Source: Escherichia coli (lineage in GTDB: Bacteria > Pseudomonadota > Gammaproteobacteria > Enterobacterales > Enterobacteriaceae). Taken from it: a DNA stretch of 7,192 nt. The stretch's first letter is position 1; each line of letters starts with the position of its first letter. Below the pieces are notes generated by a model. It was not told the origin of the DNA. It worked only from the letters and a program-made list of their open reading frames with translations, and ran no database searches. The stretch is taken from NCBI RefSeq assembly GCF_003334355.1, contig NZ_QOWP01000064.1; one strand, written 5' to 3'. The position numbers and the translations under genes were made by a program. Shown one piece after another: positions 1,032 through 7,192 of the stretch.

Positions 1032-4000
1032 TTGAATCATGAGCGGAAAACCAGCGGCGCGTCAGGGAATATGACTCAGTATGGCGGTCCCATTGTCCAG
1101 GGTTCGGCAGGTGTAAGAATTGGCGCGCCCACCGGCGTGGCGTGCTCGGTGTGTCCGGGCGGGATGACTTCGGGCAACCCGGTAAATCCGCTGCTGGGGG
1201 CGAAGGTGCTGCCCGGCGAGACGGACCTTGCGCTGCCCGGCCCGCTGCCGTTCATTCTCTCCCGCACCTACAGCAGCTACCGGACCAGGACACCCGCGCC
1301 GGTGGGAGTGTTTGGCCCCGGCTGGAAAGCGCCTTCTGATATCCGCTTACAGCTACGCGATGATGCACTGGTACTCAACGACAACGGCGGGCGGAGCATT
1401 CACTTTGAGCCGCTGCTGCCGGGGGAGGCGGTGTACAGCCGCAGCGAGTCAATGTGGCTGGTGCGCGGTGGTAAGGCAGCGCAGCCGGACGGCCACACGC
1501 TGGCGCGGCTGTGGGGGGCGCTGCCGCCGGATATCCGGTTAAGCCCGCATCTTTACCTGGCGACCAACAGCGCACAGGGGCCGTGGTGGATACTGGGGTG
1601 GTCAGAGCGGGTGCCGGGTGCTGAGGACGTACTGCCAGCGCCGCTGCCGCCGTACCGGGTGCTTACCGGGCTGGCAGACCGTTTCGGGCGGACGCTGACG
1701 TACCGGCGTGAGGCCGCAGGCGACCTGGCCGGGGAAATCACCGGCGTGACGGACGGTGCCGGGCGGGAGTTCCGTCTGGTGCTGACCACGCAGGCGCAGC
1801 GTGCGGAAGAGGCCCGCACCTCTTCGCTATCTTCTTCTGACAGTTCCCGCCCTCTCTCAGCCTCAGCGTTCCCCGACACACTGCCCGGTACCGAATACGG
1901 CCCCGACAGGGGTATCCGCCTTTCGGCGGTGTGGCTGATGCACGACCCGGCATACCCGGAGAGCCTGCCCGCTGCGCCACTGGTGCGGTACACGTATACG
2001 GAAGCCGGTGAACTGCTGGCGGTATATGACCGCAGCAATACGCAGGTGCGCGCTTTCACGTATGACGCGCAGCACCCGGGCCGGATGGTGGCGCACCGTT
2101 ACGCGGGAAAGCCGGAGATGCGCTACCGCTACGACGATACGGGGCGGGTGGTGGAGCAACTGAACCCGGCAGGGTTAAGCTACCGCTATCTTTATGAGCA
2201 GGACCGCATCACCGTCACCGACAGCCTGAACCGGCGTGAGGTGCTGCATACAGAAGGCGGGGCCGGGCTGAAACGGGTGGTGAAAAAAGAACTGGCGGAC
2301 GGCAGCGTCACGCACAGCGGGTATGACGCGGCAGGAAGGCTCACGGCGCAGACGGACGCGGCGGGACGGAGGACAGAGTACGGTCTGAATGTGGTGTCCG
2401 GCGATATCACGGACATCACCACACCGGACGGGCGGGAGACGAAATTTTACTATAACGACGGGAACCAGCTGACGGCGGTGGTGTACCCGGACGGGCTGGA
2501 GAGCCGCCGGGAATATGATGAACCGGGCAGGCTGGTATCGGAGACATCGCGCAGCGGGGAGACAGTACGCTACCGCTACGATGACGCGCACAGTGAGTTA
2601 CCGGCGACGACAACGGATGCGACGGGCAGCACCCGGCAGATGACGTGGAGCCGCTACGGGCAGTTGCTGGCGTTCACTGACTGCTCGGGCTACCAGACCC
2701 GCTATGAATACGACCGCTTCGGCCAGATGACGGCGGTTCACCGCGAGGAAGGTATCAGCCTTTACCGCCACTATGACAACCGTGGCCGGTTAACCTCGGT
2801 GAAAGACGCACAGGGCCGTGAAACGCGGTATGAATACAACGCCGCAGGCGACCTGACTGCCGTCATTACCCCGGACGGCAACCGGAGCGAGACACAGTAC
2901 GATGCGTGGGGAAAGGCGGTCAGCACCACGCAGGGCGGGCTGACGCGCAGTATGGAGTACGATGCTGCCGGACGTGTCATCAGTCTGACTAACGAGAACG
3001 GCAGCCACAGCGACTTCAGCTACGATGCGCTGGACCGGCTGGTACAGCAGGGCGGCTTTGACGGGCGGACGCAACGTTATCATTATGACCTGACCGGAAA
3101 ACTCACGCAGAGTGAAGATGAGGGGCTTATCACCCTCTGGCACTACGATGCGTCGGACCGCATCACGCACCGGACGGTGAACGGCGACCCGGCAGAGCAG
3201 TGGCAGTATGATGAGCACGGGTGGTTAACCACCCTCAGCCATACCAGTGAAGGCCACCGCGTGTCGGTCCACTACGGCTATGACGATAAAGGCCGCCTGA
3301 CCGGCGAACGCCAGACGGTGGAGAACCCGGAGACGGGGGAACTGCTGTGGCACCATGAGACCGGACATGCGTACAACGAACAGGGGCTGGCAAACCGCGT
3401 CACGCCGGACAGTCTGCCGCCGGTGGAGTGGCTGACCTACGGCAGCGGCTATCTTGCGGGCATGAAGCTGGGCGGGACGCCGCTGCTGGAGTTCACGCGC
3501 GACCGCCTGCACCGTGAGACGGTGCGCAGCTTCGGCAGCATGGCAGGCAGTAATGCCGCATATAAACTGACCAGCACATACACCCCCGCAGGCCAGTTAC
3601 AGAGCCAGCACCTGAACAGCCTGGTGTATGACCGTGACTACGGGTGGAATGACAACGGCGACCTGGTGCGCATCAGCGGCCCGCGACAGACGCGGGAATA
3701 CGGCTACAGCGCCACGGGCAGGCTGGAGAGTGTGCGCACCCTCGCACCAGACCTGGACATCCGCATCCCGTATGCCACGGACCCGGCGGGCAACCGGCTG
3801 CCGGACCCGGAGCTGCACCCGGACAGTACACTCACAGTGTGGCCGGATAACCGCATCGCGGAGGATGCGCACTATGTCTACCGCCACGATGAATACGGCA
3901 GGCTGACGGAGAAGACGGACCGCATCCCGGCGGGTGTGATACGGACGGACGACGAGCGGACCCACCACTACCACTACGACAGCCAGCACCGCCTGGTGTT

Positions 4001-5261
4001 CTACACGCGGATACAGCATGGCGAGCCACTGGTCGAGAGCCGCTACCTCTACGACCCGCTGGGACGGCGAATGGCAAAACGGGTCTGGCGGCGGGAGCGT
4101 GACCTGACGGGGTGGATGTCGCTGTCGCGTAAACCGGAGGTGACGTGGTATGGCTGGGACGGCGACCGGCTGACGACGGTGCAGACTGACACCACACGTA
4201 TCCAGACGGTATACGAGCCGGGAAGCTTCACGCCGCTCATCCGGGTCGAGACAGAGAACGGCGAGCGGGAAAAAGCGCAGCGGCGCAGCCTGGCAGAGAC
4301 GCTCCAGCAGGAAGGGAGTGAGAACGGCCACGGCGTGGTGTTCCCGGCTGAACTGGTGCGGCTGCTGGACAGGCTGGAGGAAGAAATCCGGGCAGACCGC
4401 GTGAGCAGTGAAAGCCGGGCGTGGCTTGCGCAGTGCGGGCTGACGGTGGAGCAACTGGCCAGACAGGTGGAGCCGGAATACACACCGGCGCGAAAAGTTC
4501 ATTTTTACCACTGCGACCACCGGGGCCTGCCGCTGGCGCTCATCAGCGAAGACGGCAATACGGCGTGGCGCGGGGAGTATGATGAATGGGGCAACCAGCT
4601 TAATGAGGAGAACCCGCATCACCTGCACCAGCCGTACCGTCTGCCAGGGCAGCAGCATGATGAGGAGTCGGGGCTGTACTATAACCGTCACCGGCACTAC
4701 GATCCGTTGCAGGGGCGGTATATCACCCCGGACCCGATTGGGTTGAGAGGTGGATGGAATATGTATCAGTATCCGTTGAATCCCATACAAGTGATAGACC
4801 CAATGGGGTTAGATGCGATTGAGAATATGACATCAGGTGGACTAATTTATGCCGTATCTGGTGTACCTGGATTGATTGCTGCAAACAGCATTACTAACAG
4901 TGCTTACCAGTTCGGTTATGATATGGATGCTATTGTTGGCGGAGCTCATAATGGGGCCGCCGATGCAATGAGACATTGTTACTTGATGTGTCGAATGACT
5001 AAGACATTTGGATCAACAATAGCTGACGTGATAGGTAAAAATCATGAGGCGGCAGGGGATAGACAAGGTCAGCCAGCTAAAGAAAGAATCATGGATCTTA
5101 AAAATAACACTGTCGGTATTGCTTGTGGCGATTTTTCTGCCAAATGTAGCGATGCATGTATTGAAAAATATAACACTGGGCAACTCTTCGGGTTAGATGG
5201 TATAAAAGCAGATAATCCAATAAAAGCAAAGCAAGGGAGTTCAGATGCTTCAAATTATTAG
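1032..5261 (+). CDS. Rhs-family polymorphic toxin: PAAR-like N-terminal domain, YD-repeat shell, RHS core ending in DPxGL, variable C-terminal toxin
   Basis: 1409-codon ORF ending at TAG 5259-5261. Many YD-type repeats ([86 protein letters not shown]). Core terminus is [32 protein letters not shown]. The start is ambiguous: in-frame candidates are TTG 1032 and ATG 1071, while the ATG with the best Shine-Dalgarno (1039) is in another frame. Confidence 0.9.
1039..1074 (+). other. Short [14 protein letters not shown]-stop carrying the PAAR motif, out of frame with the rhs body
   Basis: ATG 1039 preceded by GAAGGA (1025-1030) with an 8-nt spacer. It translates atg agc gga aaa cca gcg gcg cgt cag gga ata tga. 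Confidence 0.6.
4731..4811 (+). other. RHS core C-terminal boundary with two DPxGL motifs (DPIGL 4731-4745, DPMGL 4797-4811)
   Basis: Both motifs read directly in the rhs frame. The sequence turns from GC-rich to AT-rich across this segment. Confidence 0.8.
4812..5258 (+). other. Rhs variable C-terminal toxin domain, about 149 aa, family not recognised
   Basis: Sequence downstream of DPMGL: [151 protein letters not shown]-rich, with five Cys and several His. Confidence 0.7.
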
Positions 5262-5727
5262 AGGCAAACTTGTCATTTTTTTAATTACCCTTTGTTTATT
5301 TGTTGTTTACCTTGGGTTTGATAACAATTCAAATTCTGACATCGTATTTTATGGACATAAAACACCAAAGAGCGTTGAGATATATCTTTCTGAAAAAAAT
5401 ATTATTTATAAAATAATTAATGACCAAAAAATTAGTAGAGGGAATGGTCATTTTATAAGTGTAATGGTTAATAATTACAGGACGCACTGTGGAGTGGTTG
5501 ATATAAATCTTAATTTTTTCAATGATATTCTTTATAGCGTGCGATTAAAAAACATTAGTAAACTGGAGAATATGGAGTTCTGCGCTACAAAACAACGGGT
5601 GTATTTTAGTGATAAAAACAAGAAGGCTAGTTATAAAATAATTAATTATGGAGACTATTATGATGTTGATTATTATGATAACAATTTGAAAAATGAAGTT
5701 TTTGACTGGATTGGTAAATGGTCATAA
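5245..5727 (+). CDS. Putative cognate Rhs immunity protein (160 aa) with N-terminal hydrophobic signal/anchor segment
   Basis: ATG 5245 preceded by AGGGAG (5234-5239) with a 5-nt spacer. It overlaps the rhs stop by 17 nt and ends at TAA 5725-5727. Positively charged start (RGK) then hydrophobic [17 protein letters not shown]. Same AT-rich composition as the toxin domain and the usual position for an Rhs immunity gene. Confidence 0.7.
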
Positions 5728-5804
5728 TGAACAACACCAGAAAGAGAAAAATATAAAATACATACAGAAAGACATGAGAGCAAGGGACGGGGCAGGGCAA
5801 GATC

Positions 5805-5836
5805 ATGAAAATTGTGATGTAAATCACGATTTTCAT
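5805..5836. repeat. Imperfect inverted repeat: 14-nt arms (13 of 14 complementary; the odd position is a G-U wobble in RNA) around a 4-nt loop; possible weak terminator or protein-binding site
   Basis: atgaaaattgtgat-gtaa-atcacgattttcat, followed by ctttgcttt. It lies 78 nt downstream of the immunity stop. Confidence 0.5.
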
Positions 5837-5908
5837 CTTTGCTTTAACGCCTACAGGTGATCAAAATTTAACCTTTGGAATAACTAAAAAGATAAAAAAG
5901 GACGCCAG

Positions 5909-7031
5909 GTGAGTATTCAAAGTTTGCTTGATTATATTTCAGTGACCCCTGATATACGACAACAAGGAAAGGTTAAACATAAATTATCTGCTATTTTGTT
6001 TCTCACCGTATGTGCAGTAATTGCAGGTGCCGATGAGTGGCAGGAAATTGAAGATTTTGGACATGAAAGACTTGAATGGCTAAAGAAATATGGTGATTTT
6101 GATAATGGCATTCCGGTCGATGACACCATTGCACGCGTTGTGAGTAACATTGACAGTTTGGCCTTTGAAAAGATGTTTATTGAATGGATGCAGGAGTGCC
6201 ATGAAATCACTGATGGTGAAATTATAGCAATAGATGGAAAGACCATAAGAGGCTCCTTTGATAAGGGAAAAAGAAAAGGAGCAATCCATATGGTGAGTGC
6301 ATTCTCGAACGAAAATGGTGTTGTACTGGGGCAGGTGAAAACGGAAGCCAAAAGTAATGAGATTACAGCCATTCCAGAGTTGCTTAACCTACTGTATTTA
6401 AAGAAAAATTTGATAACCATTGATGCTATGGGCTGTCAGAAAGATATCGCTTCGAAGATCAAAGATAAAAAAGCAGATTATCTTCTGGCAGTAAAAGGCA
6501 ATCAGGGGAAATTACATCATGCATTCGAGGAAAAATTTCCTGTAAATGTGTTTTCTAATTATAAAGGCGATTCGTTTAGTACGCAGGAGATAAGTCATGG
6601 AAGAAAAGAAACACGTTTGCATATTGTCAGTAACGTAACGCCTGAACTTTTGTGATTTTGAATTCGAATGGAAGGGATTAAAAAAGCTTTGTGTAGCATT
6701 GTCATTCAGGCAGAAGAAAGAAGATAAATCAGCAGAAGGTGTAAGCATCCGATATTATATTTCATCAAAGGATATGGATGCTAAAGAATTTGCACATGCT
6801 ATCAGAGCGCACTGGCTGATCGAGCACAGTCTTCATTGGGTGTTAGATGTAAAAATGAATGAAGATGCCAGCCGGATAAGAAGAGGAAACGCAGCCTAAA
6901 TAATATCTGGAATAAAGAAGATGGCACTGAATTTATTAAGAGATTGCAAAGACATTAAGGGTGAAGAGGAAAAGAAAGAAGGCTGCGTTAAACACAGGGA
7001 AAGATCATCAGAAGTTCACTTTTTGTACTAA
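5909..7031 (+). pseudogene. ISAs1-family (H-repeat associated) transposase, disrupted by a frameshift near 6650-6653 and an in-frame TAA at 6897-6899
   Basis: Segment 5909..6655 carries the family hallmarks as I recall them (EITAIPELL, DAMGCQKDIA, AVKGNQG). The protein continues in another frame from about 6654 ([18 protein letters not shown]...[29 protein letters not shown]) to TAA 6897-6899. The same frame then stays open for 43 more codons (IISGIKKMALNLL...) to TAA 7029-7031. The three segments sum to about 371 codons, close to the family length as I recall it. Confidence 0.8.
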
Positions 7032-7126
7032 ATAATTCGCATTTTATGTTTAAAAATTGAGATATTCCTCATTACCTGAAGCTGTTTTTTATTGCTTATA
7101 CATGATCAAATACTCCTTACATAATT

Positions 7127-7132
7127 AAGGAG
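7127..7132 (+). promoter_or_regulatory. Shine-Dalgarno AAGGAG for the second H-repeat transposase
   Basis: aaggag at 7127-7132, 6-nt spacer, ATG at 7139. Confidence 0.6.
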
Positions 7133-7138
7133 AACAAA

Positions 7139-7192
7139 ATGGAACTTAAAAAATTGATGGAACATATTTCTATTATCCCCGATTACAGACAA
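7139..7192 (+). CDS. 5' end of a second ISAs1-family (H-repeat) transposase; continues beyond the window
   Basis: MELKKLMEHISIIPDYRQ matches the N-terminus of E. coli H-repeat proteins (YhhI-like) as I recall it, and a strong SD lies upstream. It shares only 8 of 18 residues with the N-terminus of the upstream pseudogene (MSIQSLLDYISVTPDIRQ). Confidence 0.75.
   Translation, partial: MELKKLMEHISIIPDYRQ

What the first reader, a model, noticed from the sequence alone, without database searches (positions are those of the whole stretch)
5909..7031. Decayed H-repeat (ISAs1-family) transposase with a frameshift and a premature stop
The reading frame carrying ISAs1 hallmark motifs breaks after VTPELL (TGA 6653-6655), and the homologous protein continues one frame over from about 6654. 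Four nucleotides (ttgt, 6650-6653) lie where the family alignment as I recall it expects one codon, which suggests a +1 insertion. A second lesion is TAA at 6897-6899, an in-frame stop where I recall homologs having Glu (RRGNAAE...); the frame stays open to 7031 with recognisable C-terminal similarity. This element is therefore an inactive relic, so the locus gained the IS early or was rearranged by it some time ago.
Basis: partly seen in the sequence, partly recalled or inferred. Interest (0 to 1): 0.4.

Follow-up and report, generated by a model that had tools for sequence, protein, structure and literature searches.

The report
Dead ISEc26 transposase gene (yncI)

Summary
Window 5793-6994 is a defective ISAs1-family ("H-repeat") insertion sequence. 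It is the K-12 pseudogene yncI (b1459), which NCBI's PGAP annotation pipeline labels "ISAs1 family transposase; frameshifted; internal stop".

It is 98.6% identical in DNA to the intact 1307-bp ISEc26 of E. coli O157:H7 (390-aa transposase). Compared with that copy:

- **Frameshift:** one extra C at 6647 (GAA|C|TTT TGT) creates the TGA at 6653-6655.
- **Nonsense:** Glu330 GAA has become TAA at 6897-6899.
a 5-bp deletion (one copy of a tandem GGGTG) at about 6959.
the element ends at 6994, where a second ISAs1-family element (ISEc5, gene ydcC) begins at 6995. The last 26 codons and the right inverted repeat are absent. Bases 6997-7031 are therefore not C-terminal coding sequence; they are the left end of ISEc5.

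One strain (UTAK-10) keeps the missing 111 bp beyond ISEc5, flanked by a 10-bp target duplication, which shows a simple nested insertion. All seven relic copies compared base by base carry identical lesions. They come from two chromosomal Rhs loci, RhsE and the one next to yafV. About 2,200 of 5,426 complete genomes carry the relic form. Interest is low.

The parts
5793..5811 (+). Left terminal inverted repeat of the ISEc26-type relic (CAGGGCAAGATCATGAAAA)
   Evidence: In intact ISEc26 (L003) the matching arms 2281-2298 and 3570-3587 are 18 nt long and 94% complementary, 1271 nt apart. Window homology to element position 1 starts at 5792. It is 84% identical to the ISEc5 left end at 6995-7013 (repeat D3). 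No inverted partner exists in the window.
5805..5836 (+). Hairpin just inside the left end (14-nt arms, 4-nt loop)
   Evidence: pair I4 (93% complementary). The arms are perfect in intact ISEc26 (pair I4). Function not tested.
5909..6646 (+). Transposase segment A, codons 1-246 (GTG start; DDE_Tnp_1_assoc domain plus the first two-thirds of the DDE domain)
   Evidence: NF033564 scores 293.5 bits. Differs from P0001 by the substitutions I13T, D28A, I89M and D163Y.
6647..6647 (+). Lesion 1: inserted C (+1 frameshift)
   Evidence: DNA alignment with intact ISEc26. Present in all 7 relic copies compared.
6653..6655 (+). TGA created by the frameshift; ends the 248-codon ORF
   Evidence: PMC11148124 notes a stop at amino-acid position 249 in MG1655.
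6648..6896 (+). Transposase segment B, codons 247-329, in the +1 frame; contains HWLIEH, the inferred catalytic Glu region
   Evidence: NF033564 scores 93.8 bits, profile positions 225-300 of 314.
6897..6899 (+). Lesion 2: nonsense mutation, GAA (Glu330) to TAA
   Evidence: Shared by all 7 relic copies.
6900..6960 (+). Segment B continued, codons 331-351 (IISGIKKMALNLLRDCKDIKG)
6959..6963 (+). Lesion 3: site of a 5-bp deletion (tandem GGGTG-GGGTG reduced to one GGGTG), a second frameshift
Evidence: The exact position is ambiguous within the repeat. Shared by all 7 relic copies.
6961..6994 (+). Segment C, codons 353-363 (VKRKRKKAALN) in the third frame; the last homologous part of the relic
   Evidence: P0001 reads GVKRKRKKVALNT at this point.
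6985..6994 (+). GCGTTAAACA, the target site of the ISEc5 insertion and the 3' end of the relic
   Evidence: In L009 the same 10 bp flank ISEc5 on both sides and ISEc26 resumes after it. In the window only the left copy can be seen.
6995..7192 (+). Left end of the next ISAs1-family element (ISEc5 / H-repeat; inverted repeat CAGGGAAAGATCAT..; ydcC ATG at 7140). It runs off the end of the window.
   Evidence: Homology with the yhhI element of RhsB starts exactly at CAGGG. Many genomes match the query only from window 6994-6996 onward. In K-12 the element is 1291 bp, from CAGGG to CCCTG. Annotated as ydcC, ISEc5 family.

Best explanation
Window 5793-6994 is a dead copy of the ISAs1-family insertion sequence ISEc26. 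It is the "H-repeat" pseudogene known in E. coli K-12 as yncI, lying downstream of the RhsE toxin gene and its YdcD-family partner gene.

An intact ISEc26 is 1307 bp long. It has 18-nt terminal inverted repeats starting CAGGG and one gene for a 390-aa transposase (DDE_Tnp_1_assoc domain plus DDE domain).

This copy cannot make that protein:
- An inserted C at 6647 shifts the frame after codon 246. By motif position, that lies downstream of the two Asp residues of the catalytic triad and upstream of the Glu (inferred).
- Glu330 is a TAA stop.
- A 5-bp slippage deletion at about 6959 shifts the frame again.
- A second ISAs1-family element (ISEc5, gene ydcC) sits at 6995, cutting off the last 26 codons.

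At this locus the distal 99-111 bp of ISEc26, including its right inverted repeat, are gone. The relic could therefore not be mobilised even by a transposase supplied in trans (inferred).

Shown: the lesions, the junction, the nested-insertion origin (a strain retains the distal piece with a 10-bp target duplication), and identical lesions in copies at two chromosomal loci.

Inferred: the module (Rhs tip, ydcD, relic, ISEc5) reached its second locus by homologous recombination between Rhs loci. The order of the four inactivating events is unknown.
For: Identity and annotation:
- The K-12 yncI pseudogene maps to window 5909-6962 and E. coli C carries "ISAs1 family transposase, frameshifted; internal stop" at window 5909-7035.
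- K-12 and E. coli C match the window at every column that varies among the compared copies.

Family:
- NF033564 scores 293.5 and 93.8 bits against a cut-off of 70.
- The conceptually repaired protein matches Pfam PF13808 (E 6.4e-31) and PF01609 (E 9.8e-30).

Intact counterpart:
- P0001, named ISEc26 family transposase, is 390 aa and 99% identical.
- DNA identity is 98.6% over element positions 1-1208.

Lesions:
-.

ISEc5 boundary:
-.

Nested insertion with the 10-bp duplication GCGTTAAACA and retained ISEc26 positions 1197-1307:
-.

Population:
- 2,478 of 5,426 complete genomes hold at least 80% of window 5800-7192.
- 2,187 hold the relic/ISEc5 junction.
- For the 3' half of ISEc26, 320 records match at 99% or more over the full length and 2,225 at 95-99%. 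All 33 full-length relic-class rows sampled span 495 bp for 499 query bases.

Literature:
- yncI in MG1655 is a pseudogene and is intact as ISEc26 in O157:H7 Sakai (PMC11540155).
- A stop at position 249 is noted in PMC11148124.
- yncI is used as a neutral integration site (PMC11731478).
Against: Nothing contradicts the pseudogene reading.

Caveats:
- The window stops at 7192, so the loss of the distal ISEc26 piece at this particular locus is read from genomes that match the window at 100% (K-12 and E. coli C right flanks), not from the window itself.
- The catalytic residues are assigned by motif position only. No solved structure is detectably related by sequence.
- No clean target duplication flanks ISEc26 itself, so its own insertion event is not documented.
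- The 248-codon ORF with its ribosome-binding site is intact in thousands of genomes, so a truncated product cannot be excluded.
Confidence: 0.97

Rival explanations
1. The truncated 248-aa N-terminal product (DNA-binding DDE_Tnp_1_assoc domain plus a partial catalytic domain) is still made. It would have a retained role, for example as a trans-acting inhibitor or regulator of sibling ISAs1-family elements, or some host phenotype.
For: - The ORF 5909-6655 with its upstream AGGA is intact in every copy examined.
- A 248-aa protein cluster at 100% identity has 2,147 member sequences (P0010).
- A pan-genome association study loosely linked the yncI gene cluster to adherence, but the result was not significant after correction (PMC11540155).
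- Truncated transposases acting as inhibitors are known in other families, such as Tn5 Inh and IS1 InsA (general knowledge, not tested here).
Against: - Of the substitutions that separate the relic from the intact copy in this ORF, four are non-synonymous and one synonymous. I13T, D28A and D163Y are derived relative to the Salmonella relatives P0002, P0004 and P0006. This looks like relaxed rather than purifying selection, though the numbers are small.
- The ORF is interrupted by IS1, IS5 or IS10 in some strains without any noted effect (H1-H5; PMC11148124).
- The locus is used routinely as a neutral integration site (PMC11731478).
- No expression data were examined.
Confidence: 0.03
2. The frame break at 6647-6655 is a programmed +1 ribosomal frameshift (CUU slipping onto UUU) that yields full-length transposase at a low level.
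For: The sequence CTT TTG TGA superficially allows peptidyl-tRNA(Leu) to re-pair on UUU in the +1 frame (read directly from the sequence).
Against: - The intact relatives P0001, P0002 and P0006 encode the protein in a single frame (..[10 protein letters not shown]..), with no extra base at this site in intact ISEc26.
- The slippery codon is followed by a sense codon, not a stop or a rare codon.
- Even after such a shift, the TAA at 6897, the 5-bp deletion and the missing 26 C-terminal codons remain.
- To my knowledge the ISAs1 family has one ORF and no programmed frameshift.
Confidence: 0.005
3. The lesions are sequencing or assembly errors in this one record.
For: None, beyond the general fact that single-base indels in homopolymer-rich, AT-rich DNA are a common error type.
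Against: - The same sequence occurs at 100% identity in many independent complete genomes.
- The same three lesions occur in all seven copies compared base by base.
- All 33 full-length relic-class rows sampled across the collection have the span expected with both indels.
- MG1655, a finished reference genome, has them annotated.
Confidence: 0.002

Closest known systems
yncI (b1459) pseudogene of E. coli K-12 MG1655, RhsE-linked H-repeat
   Same: The same element at the same locus. The window matches K-12 at every column that varies among the compared copies across 5792-7000, and the order ydcD-yncO-yncI-ydcC is the same.
   Different: - In the window the upstream rhs gene is full length (1409 aa, preceded by vgrG), whereas K-12 rhsE is a truncated pseudogene.
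- The K-12 annotation ends yncI at the equivalent of window 6962. PGAP ends it at 7035, which runs into the ISEc5 end.
ISEc26 (ISAs1 family), intact copy of E. coli O157:H7 / O55:H7 next to yafV
   Same: 98.6% DNA identity over element positions 1-1208, the same left inverted repeat, and the same upstream neighbours (ydcD-type gene, yncO).
   Different: The intact copy has one 390-codon ORF, both inverted repeats and no nested ISEc5. It lies at a different chromosomal Rhs locus.
ISEc5 / ISEc1 H-repeat elements (ydcC, yhhI, ybfD), 1291 bp
   Same: The same IS family and domain architecture, CAGGG...CCCTG ends, and an association with Rhs loci. The protein is 56% identical.
   Different: A different IS species, about 67-68% DNA identity in the core only. 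The ydcC copy beside the relic is intact in K-12 and E. coli C.
ybfL and ybfQ, defective H-repeat genes at RhsC in K-12
   Same: The same pattern: a defective H-repeat gene lying in tandem upstream of a further H-repeat gene (ybfD) downstream of an rhs gene.
   Different: Independent lesions, and closer to the ISEc1/ISEc5 type (one search shows only about 67% partial matches to ISEc26). Not analysed in detail.

Membership tests
ISAs1 family insertion sequence (H-repeat) | Transposase matches the curated ISAs1 family model (NCBIfam NF033564) above its cut-off | tested here: met
   Segment A scores 293.5 bits and segment B 93.8 bits against a cut-off of 70. Together they cover profile positions 1-218 and 225-300 of 314.
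ISAs1 family insertion sequence (H-repeat) | Domain architecture DDE_Tnp_1_assoc (PF13808) followed by DDE_Tnp_1 (PF01609) | tested here: met
   On the conceptually repaired protein: PF13808 at residues 8-94 (E 6.4e-31) and PF01609 at residues 102-342 (E 9.8e-30).
ISAs1 family insertion sequence (H-repeat) | Short terminal inverted repeats (about 14-22 bp, ends CAGGG; family values recalled from ISfinder and not verified in a paper here) | tested here: inconclusive
   The left repeat is present at 5793-5811. The right repeat is absent from the window. Both are present in intact ISEc26, 18 nt with 17 of 18 complementary.
ISAs1 family insertion sequence (H-repeat) | Target-site duplication of about 8-10 bp (family value from memory) | tested here: inconclusive
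   No clean duplication flanks ISEc26 itself in L003. The nested ISEc5 has a perfect 10-bp duplication, GCGTTAAACA, in L009.
ISAs1 family insertion sequence (H-repeat) | One uninterrupted transposase ORF of about 370-390 codons (functional member) | tested here: not met
   Two frameshifts, one nonsense codon and 26 missing C-terminal codons. It is a relic of a member, not a functional member.
ISAs1 family insertion sequence (H-repeat) | Transposition activity | not testable with these tools
   Needs a mating-out or papillation assay. PMC3032704 states that transposition of H-repeats has not been observed.
ISEc26 (the specific IS) | Near-identity to the reference element (the ISfinder isoform criterion of more than 95% DNA identity is from memory) | tested here: met
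   98.6% over 1208 of 1307 bp. 99% protein identity to P0001, which NCBI names ISEc26 family transposase.
K-12 pseudogene yncI | Same sequence, same lesions and same neighbours as b1459 | tested here: met

The most novel reading that the evidence does not exclude
The conserved 248-codon N-terminal ORF of the relic is still expressed and acts as a truncated-transposase regulator of the neighbouring, intact ISEc5/ISEc1 H-repeat elements. A repressor of that kind could help explain why H-repeat transposition has not been seen in the laboratory. Alternatively, it contributes to a host phenotype such as the weak adherence association reported for the yncI gene cluster.
Probability: 0.03. Interest if true: 0.4.

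Novelty: already known. Interest (0 to 1): 0.07.

Why it matters
It matters little beyond annotation hygiene. The pseudogene is catalogued in K-12, flagged automatically by PGAP and used as a neutral integration site.

The modest additions here are these:
- A complete lesion map, including a second frameshift and a 3' truncation that current annotations blur. PGAP's feature runs 41 bp into the neighbouring ISEc5.
- A clean nested-insertion intermediate (ISEc26::ISEc5 with a 10-bp target duplication) in one strain. This is a footprint of past H-repeat transposition, an activity reported as never observed directly (PMC3032704).
- Evidence that the same damaged module sits at two different Rhs loci, consistent with exchange of 3' modules between Rhs loci by recombination.

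Tried and rejected
- **YdcC as alignment reference.** It confirmed the two-frame structure. At only 56% identity it could not place the indel or reveal the 5-bp deletion, so I replaced it with the 99% identical ISEc26 protein and its DNA.
- **Inverted-repeat search for the ISEc5 ends.** It did not report the short terminal repeats. The boundary was resolved instead by alignment with the yhhI element and by the CAGGG...CCCTG span of 1291 bp.
- **Programmed frameshift and sequencing error.** Both considered and rejected (see rivals).
- **Search for intermediates carrying only some lesions.** None appeared among the 7 copies aligned or the 33 relic rows sampled evenly. This is a sample, not an exhaustive scan.
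- **Literature search for a review table of ISAs1 family features.** It found nothing usable, so the family values for inverted-repeat and duplication length are from memory.
- **PDB sequence search with the intact transposase.** Only chance-level hits, so the catalytic residues are assigned by motif position only.

Full report
**What is in the window**

A GTG-initiated ORF at 5909-6655 ends ...VTPELL-TGA. The next frame then reads [12 protein letters not shown]...RRGNAA-TAA-IISGIKKMALNLL. The surroundings identify the locus:

- 25-972: the 3' end of a vgrG gene.
- 1032-5261: a 1409-aa Rhs protein.
- 5245-5727: a YdcD-family protein (NF050020, 215 bits).
- 5642-5827, minus strand: the small gene yncO.
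- 7140 onward: the start of ydcC (MELKKLMEHISIIPDYRQ).

A megablast against 5,426 complete E. coli genomes finds window 5800-7192 at 100% identity in many strains. In these it is annotated [quoted passage not shown].

In K-12 MG1655 the stretch is the annotated pseudogene yncI (b1459), between ydcD/yncO and ydcC at the RhsE locus. In E. coli C, PGAP annotates it "ISAs1 family transposase; frameshifted; internal stop", equivalent to window 5909-7035. The feature is therefore real and already catalogued.

**Family membership**

- The two reading-frame segments separately match the curated ISAs1 transposase model NF033564. They score 293.5 bits (profile positions 1-218) and 93.8 bits (positions 225-300), against a cut-off of 70.
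- They therefore cover consecutive parts of one family profile, so they are parts of one protein, not unrelated proteins.
- A conceptually repaired protein shows the family's Pfam architecture, DDE_Tnp_1_assoc (PF13808) followed by DDE_Tnp_1 (PF01609).

**The right reference and the exact lesions**

The neighbouring YdcC is only 56% identical and is a poor ruler. Its gene lies in an intact element next to yafV in the O157:H7/O55:H7 lineage. That element is 1307 bp long and has 18-nt terminal inverted repeats, GCAGGGCAAGATCATGAA / TTCATGCTCTTGCCCTGC.

The window aligns to positions 1-1208 of it at 98.6% identity, spanning window 5792-6996. The base-by-base comparison gives the following:

1. 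**Inserted C at 6647.** CCT GAA C TTT TGT GAT replaces CCT GAA TTT TGT GAT. This shifts the frame after codon 246 and creates the TGA at 6653-6655.
2. **Nonsense at 6897.** GAA has become TAA, at Glu330.
3. **A 5-bp deletion at about 6959.** The tandem GGGTG-GGGTG is reduced to one copy, a typical slippage event. It shifts the frame again, so the remaining homologous codons (VKRKRKKAALN, 6961-6993) lie in the third frame.
4. **Loss of homology after 6994-6996.**

Lesion 1 was placed 3-6 nt too far downstream, apparently because the recalled family sequence was the YdcC type.

There are also four amino-acid substitutions in segment A relative to P0001: I13T, D28A, I89M and D163Y. I13T, D28A and D163Y are derived relative to the Salmonella relatives P0002, P0004 and P0006.

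**What lies at 6995-7031**

- Aligning the window with the region upstream of yhhI, the H-repeat of RhsB, shows homology beginning exactly at CAGGGAAAGATCATC, window 6995.
- Many genomes match the junction query only from window 6994-6996 onward.
- In K-12 the ydcC element runs from this CAGGG to CCCTG and is 1291 bp long.
- The window also shows the two left ends as a direct repeat 1202 bp apart: 5793-5811 and 6995-7013, 84% identical.

So the "open frame to 7031 with C-terminal similarity" is the left inverted repeat and leader of ISEc5, not ISEc26 coding sequence. The relic lacks codons 365-390, its stop codon and its right inverted repeat.

**How the truncation arose**

In strain UTAK-10 (L009) the same relic-plus-ISEc5 pair lies at the Rhs locus next to yafV. 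There, ISEc26 positions 1197-1307 reappear immediately after the right end of ISEc5. The junctions read ...GGCT GCGTTAAACA|CAGGGAAAG... and ...CTTGCCCTG|GCGTTAAACA CATGTTATATAG....

This is a simple insertion of ISEc5 into the 3' end of the ISEc26 transposase gene, with a 10-bp target duplication. In two other yafV-locus strains (L007, L008) and at the RhsE locus (K-12), the sequence after ISEc5 is not the ISEc26 remainder. The distal piece has therefore been lost there, or was never carried over.

**Age and spread**

- Seven relic copies were compared. Four are from the RhsE locus (window, K-12, E. coli C, BS-04) and three from the yafV locus (EC21Z-048, NCCP15648, UTAK-10). All share lesions 1-3 and the ISEc5 junction.
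- The copies differ only at a few other sites. BS-04 carries the yafV-type allele at the RhsE locus, which is consistent with exchange between loci.
- A query covering the 3' half of intact ISEc26 matches 2,554 genomes in two classes: 320 records at 99% or more (the rows shown cover the full 598-bp query) and 2,225 at 95-99% (the rows shown cover only query positions 1-499).
- Each of the 33 full-length relic-class rows sampled evenly down the ranking spans 495 bp for 499 query bases. That is the size expected with the +1 insertion and the -5 deletion both present.
- No intermediate was seen, though this is a sample rather than an exhaustive scan.

The divergence from the intact copy, about 1.4%, is within the range of ordinary E. 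coli allelic variation (general knowledge). "Old" therefore means old within the species, not ancient.

**Mechanism, shown and inferred**

Shown:
- The gene cannot encode a full-length transposase.
- The element has only one terminal repeat at this locus.
- It was hit by a second IS.

Inferred from motif positions in DDE_Tnp_1-type transposases (IAIDGK, ITIDAMG, HWLIEH):
- The first frameshift separates the two catalytic Asp residues from the catalytic Glu.
- No structure is available to confirm this.

Inferred:
- The module moved between Rhs loci by homologous recombination, through the conserved Rhs core upstream and an H-repeat downstream.

**Rivals**

- **Programmed +1 frameshifting** is excluded. 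The intact relatives are single-frame, and two further lesions plus the truncation lie downstream.
- **Sequencing error** is excluded by the many independent genomes.
- **A retained function for the 248-aa N-terminal product** cannot be excluded but has little support. The substitutions in it are mostly non-synonymous. The ORF is interrupted by IS1, IS5 or IS10R in some strains (PMC11148124). The locus serves as a neutral integration site in strain engineering (PMC11731478). A pan-genome association of the yncI cluster with adherence did not survive correction for multiple tests (PMC11540155). That paper already notes that yncI is a pseudogene in MG1655 and intact as ISEc26 in O157:H7 Sakai.

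**Verdict**

This is an ordinary, already annotated IS pseudogene. Interest is low.

The only mildly useful by-products are the complete lesion map, the corrected 3' boundary at 6994, and the nested-insertion intermediate that documents a past transposition of an H-repeat element. PMC3032704 says such activity has not been observed.

Noticed in passing
L009 3400-4840 (E. coli UTAK-10, yafV locus): A complete nested structure, ISEc26::ISEc5. The distal 111 bp of ISEc26 are retained after ISEc5, with a perfect 10-bp target duplication, GCGTTAAACA. This is a clean footprint of H-repeat transposition, which PMC3032704 says has not been observed experimentally.
   Followed up: yes
L007, L008, L009 (yafV locus) compared with window, L001, L002, L010 (RhsE locus): The same module (Rhs C-terminal tip, ydcD, yncO, damaged ISEc26, ISEc5) occurs at two distant chromosomal Rhs loci with identical lesions. 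Strain BS-04 has the yafV-type allele at the RhsE locus. This suggests recombinational exchange of 3' modules between Rhs loci.
   Followed up: partly
L011 3099-3378 (K-12, yafF pseudogene beside yafV): K-12 keeps only the last 280 bp or so of an ISEc5-type H-repeat next to yafV (97.9% identity to the ydcC element; 95% over 353 bp to the L007 arrangement). It appears to be a remnant of an Rhs/H-repeat module deleted from the yafV locus.
   Followed up: partly
Proteins P0008 and P0009 (378 aa): Intact chimeric transposases. The N-terminal 160 or so residues are identical to the relic (including T13 and A28) and the rest is YdcC-type, with the crossover in the conserved SNEITAIPELLN stretch. This looks like recombination between the two tandem H-repeats, deleting the lesions and restoring an open frame. 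It was seen on only one contig each.
   Followed up: no
window 5642-5827 (-): The small gene yncO (61 aa in K-12) lies antisense across the ydcD 3' end and overlaps the left inverted repeat of the relic (5793-5811). Its start region therefore lies inside IS-derived DNA.
   Followed up: no
window 5805-5836: A 14-nt-arm hairpin (ATGAAAATTGTGAT / ATCACGATTTTCAT) sits immediately inside the left inverted repeat. It is perfect in intact ISEc26 and has one mismatch here. It may be a structure guarding the transposase gene against read-through transcription. Untested.
   Followed up: no
window 5893-5899: The A-run just upstream of the AGGA ribosome-binding site has one more A in the RhsE-locus copies (window, K-12, E. 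coli C) than in intact ISEc26 and in the four yafV-type copies (L007-L010, the last at the RhsE locus).
   Followed up: no
window 4400-5600: G+C falls from 0.59-0.69 in the Rhs core to 0.43 and then 0.30 across the Rhs C-terminal tip and ydcD. This is the classic composite composition of Rhs elements. The IS region is 0.31-0.41.
   Followed up: no
L007-L009 3579-4715: At the yafV locus the ISEc5-type copy downstream of the relic is itself annotated as a pseudogene (internal stop). The RhsE-locus ydcC of K-12 and E. coli C is intact.
   Followed up: no
Hits H1-H5; XL1-Blue (PMC11148124): In some strains the relic is further interrupted by IS1, by an IS5-like element (ISKpn26) or by IS10R (at codon Cys262 in XL1-Blue). 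The relic is a tolerated landing site for other insertion sequences.
   Followed up: no
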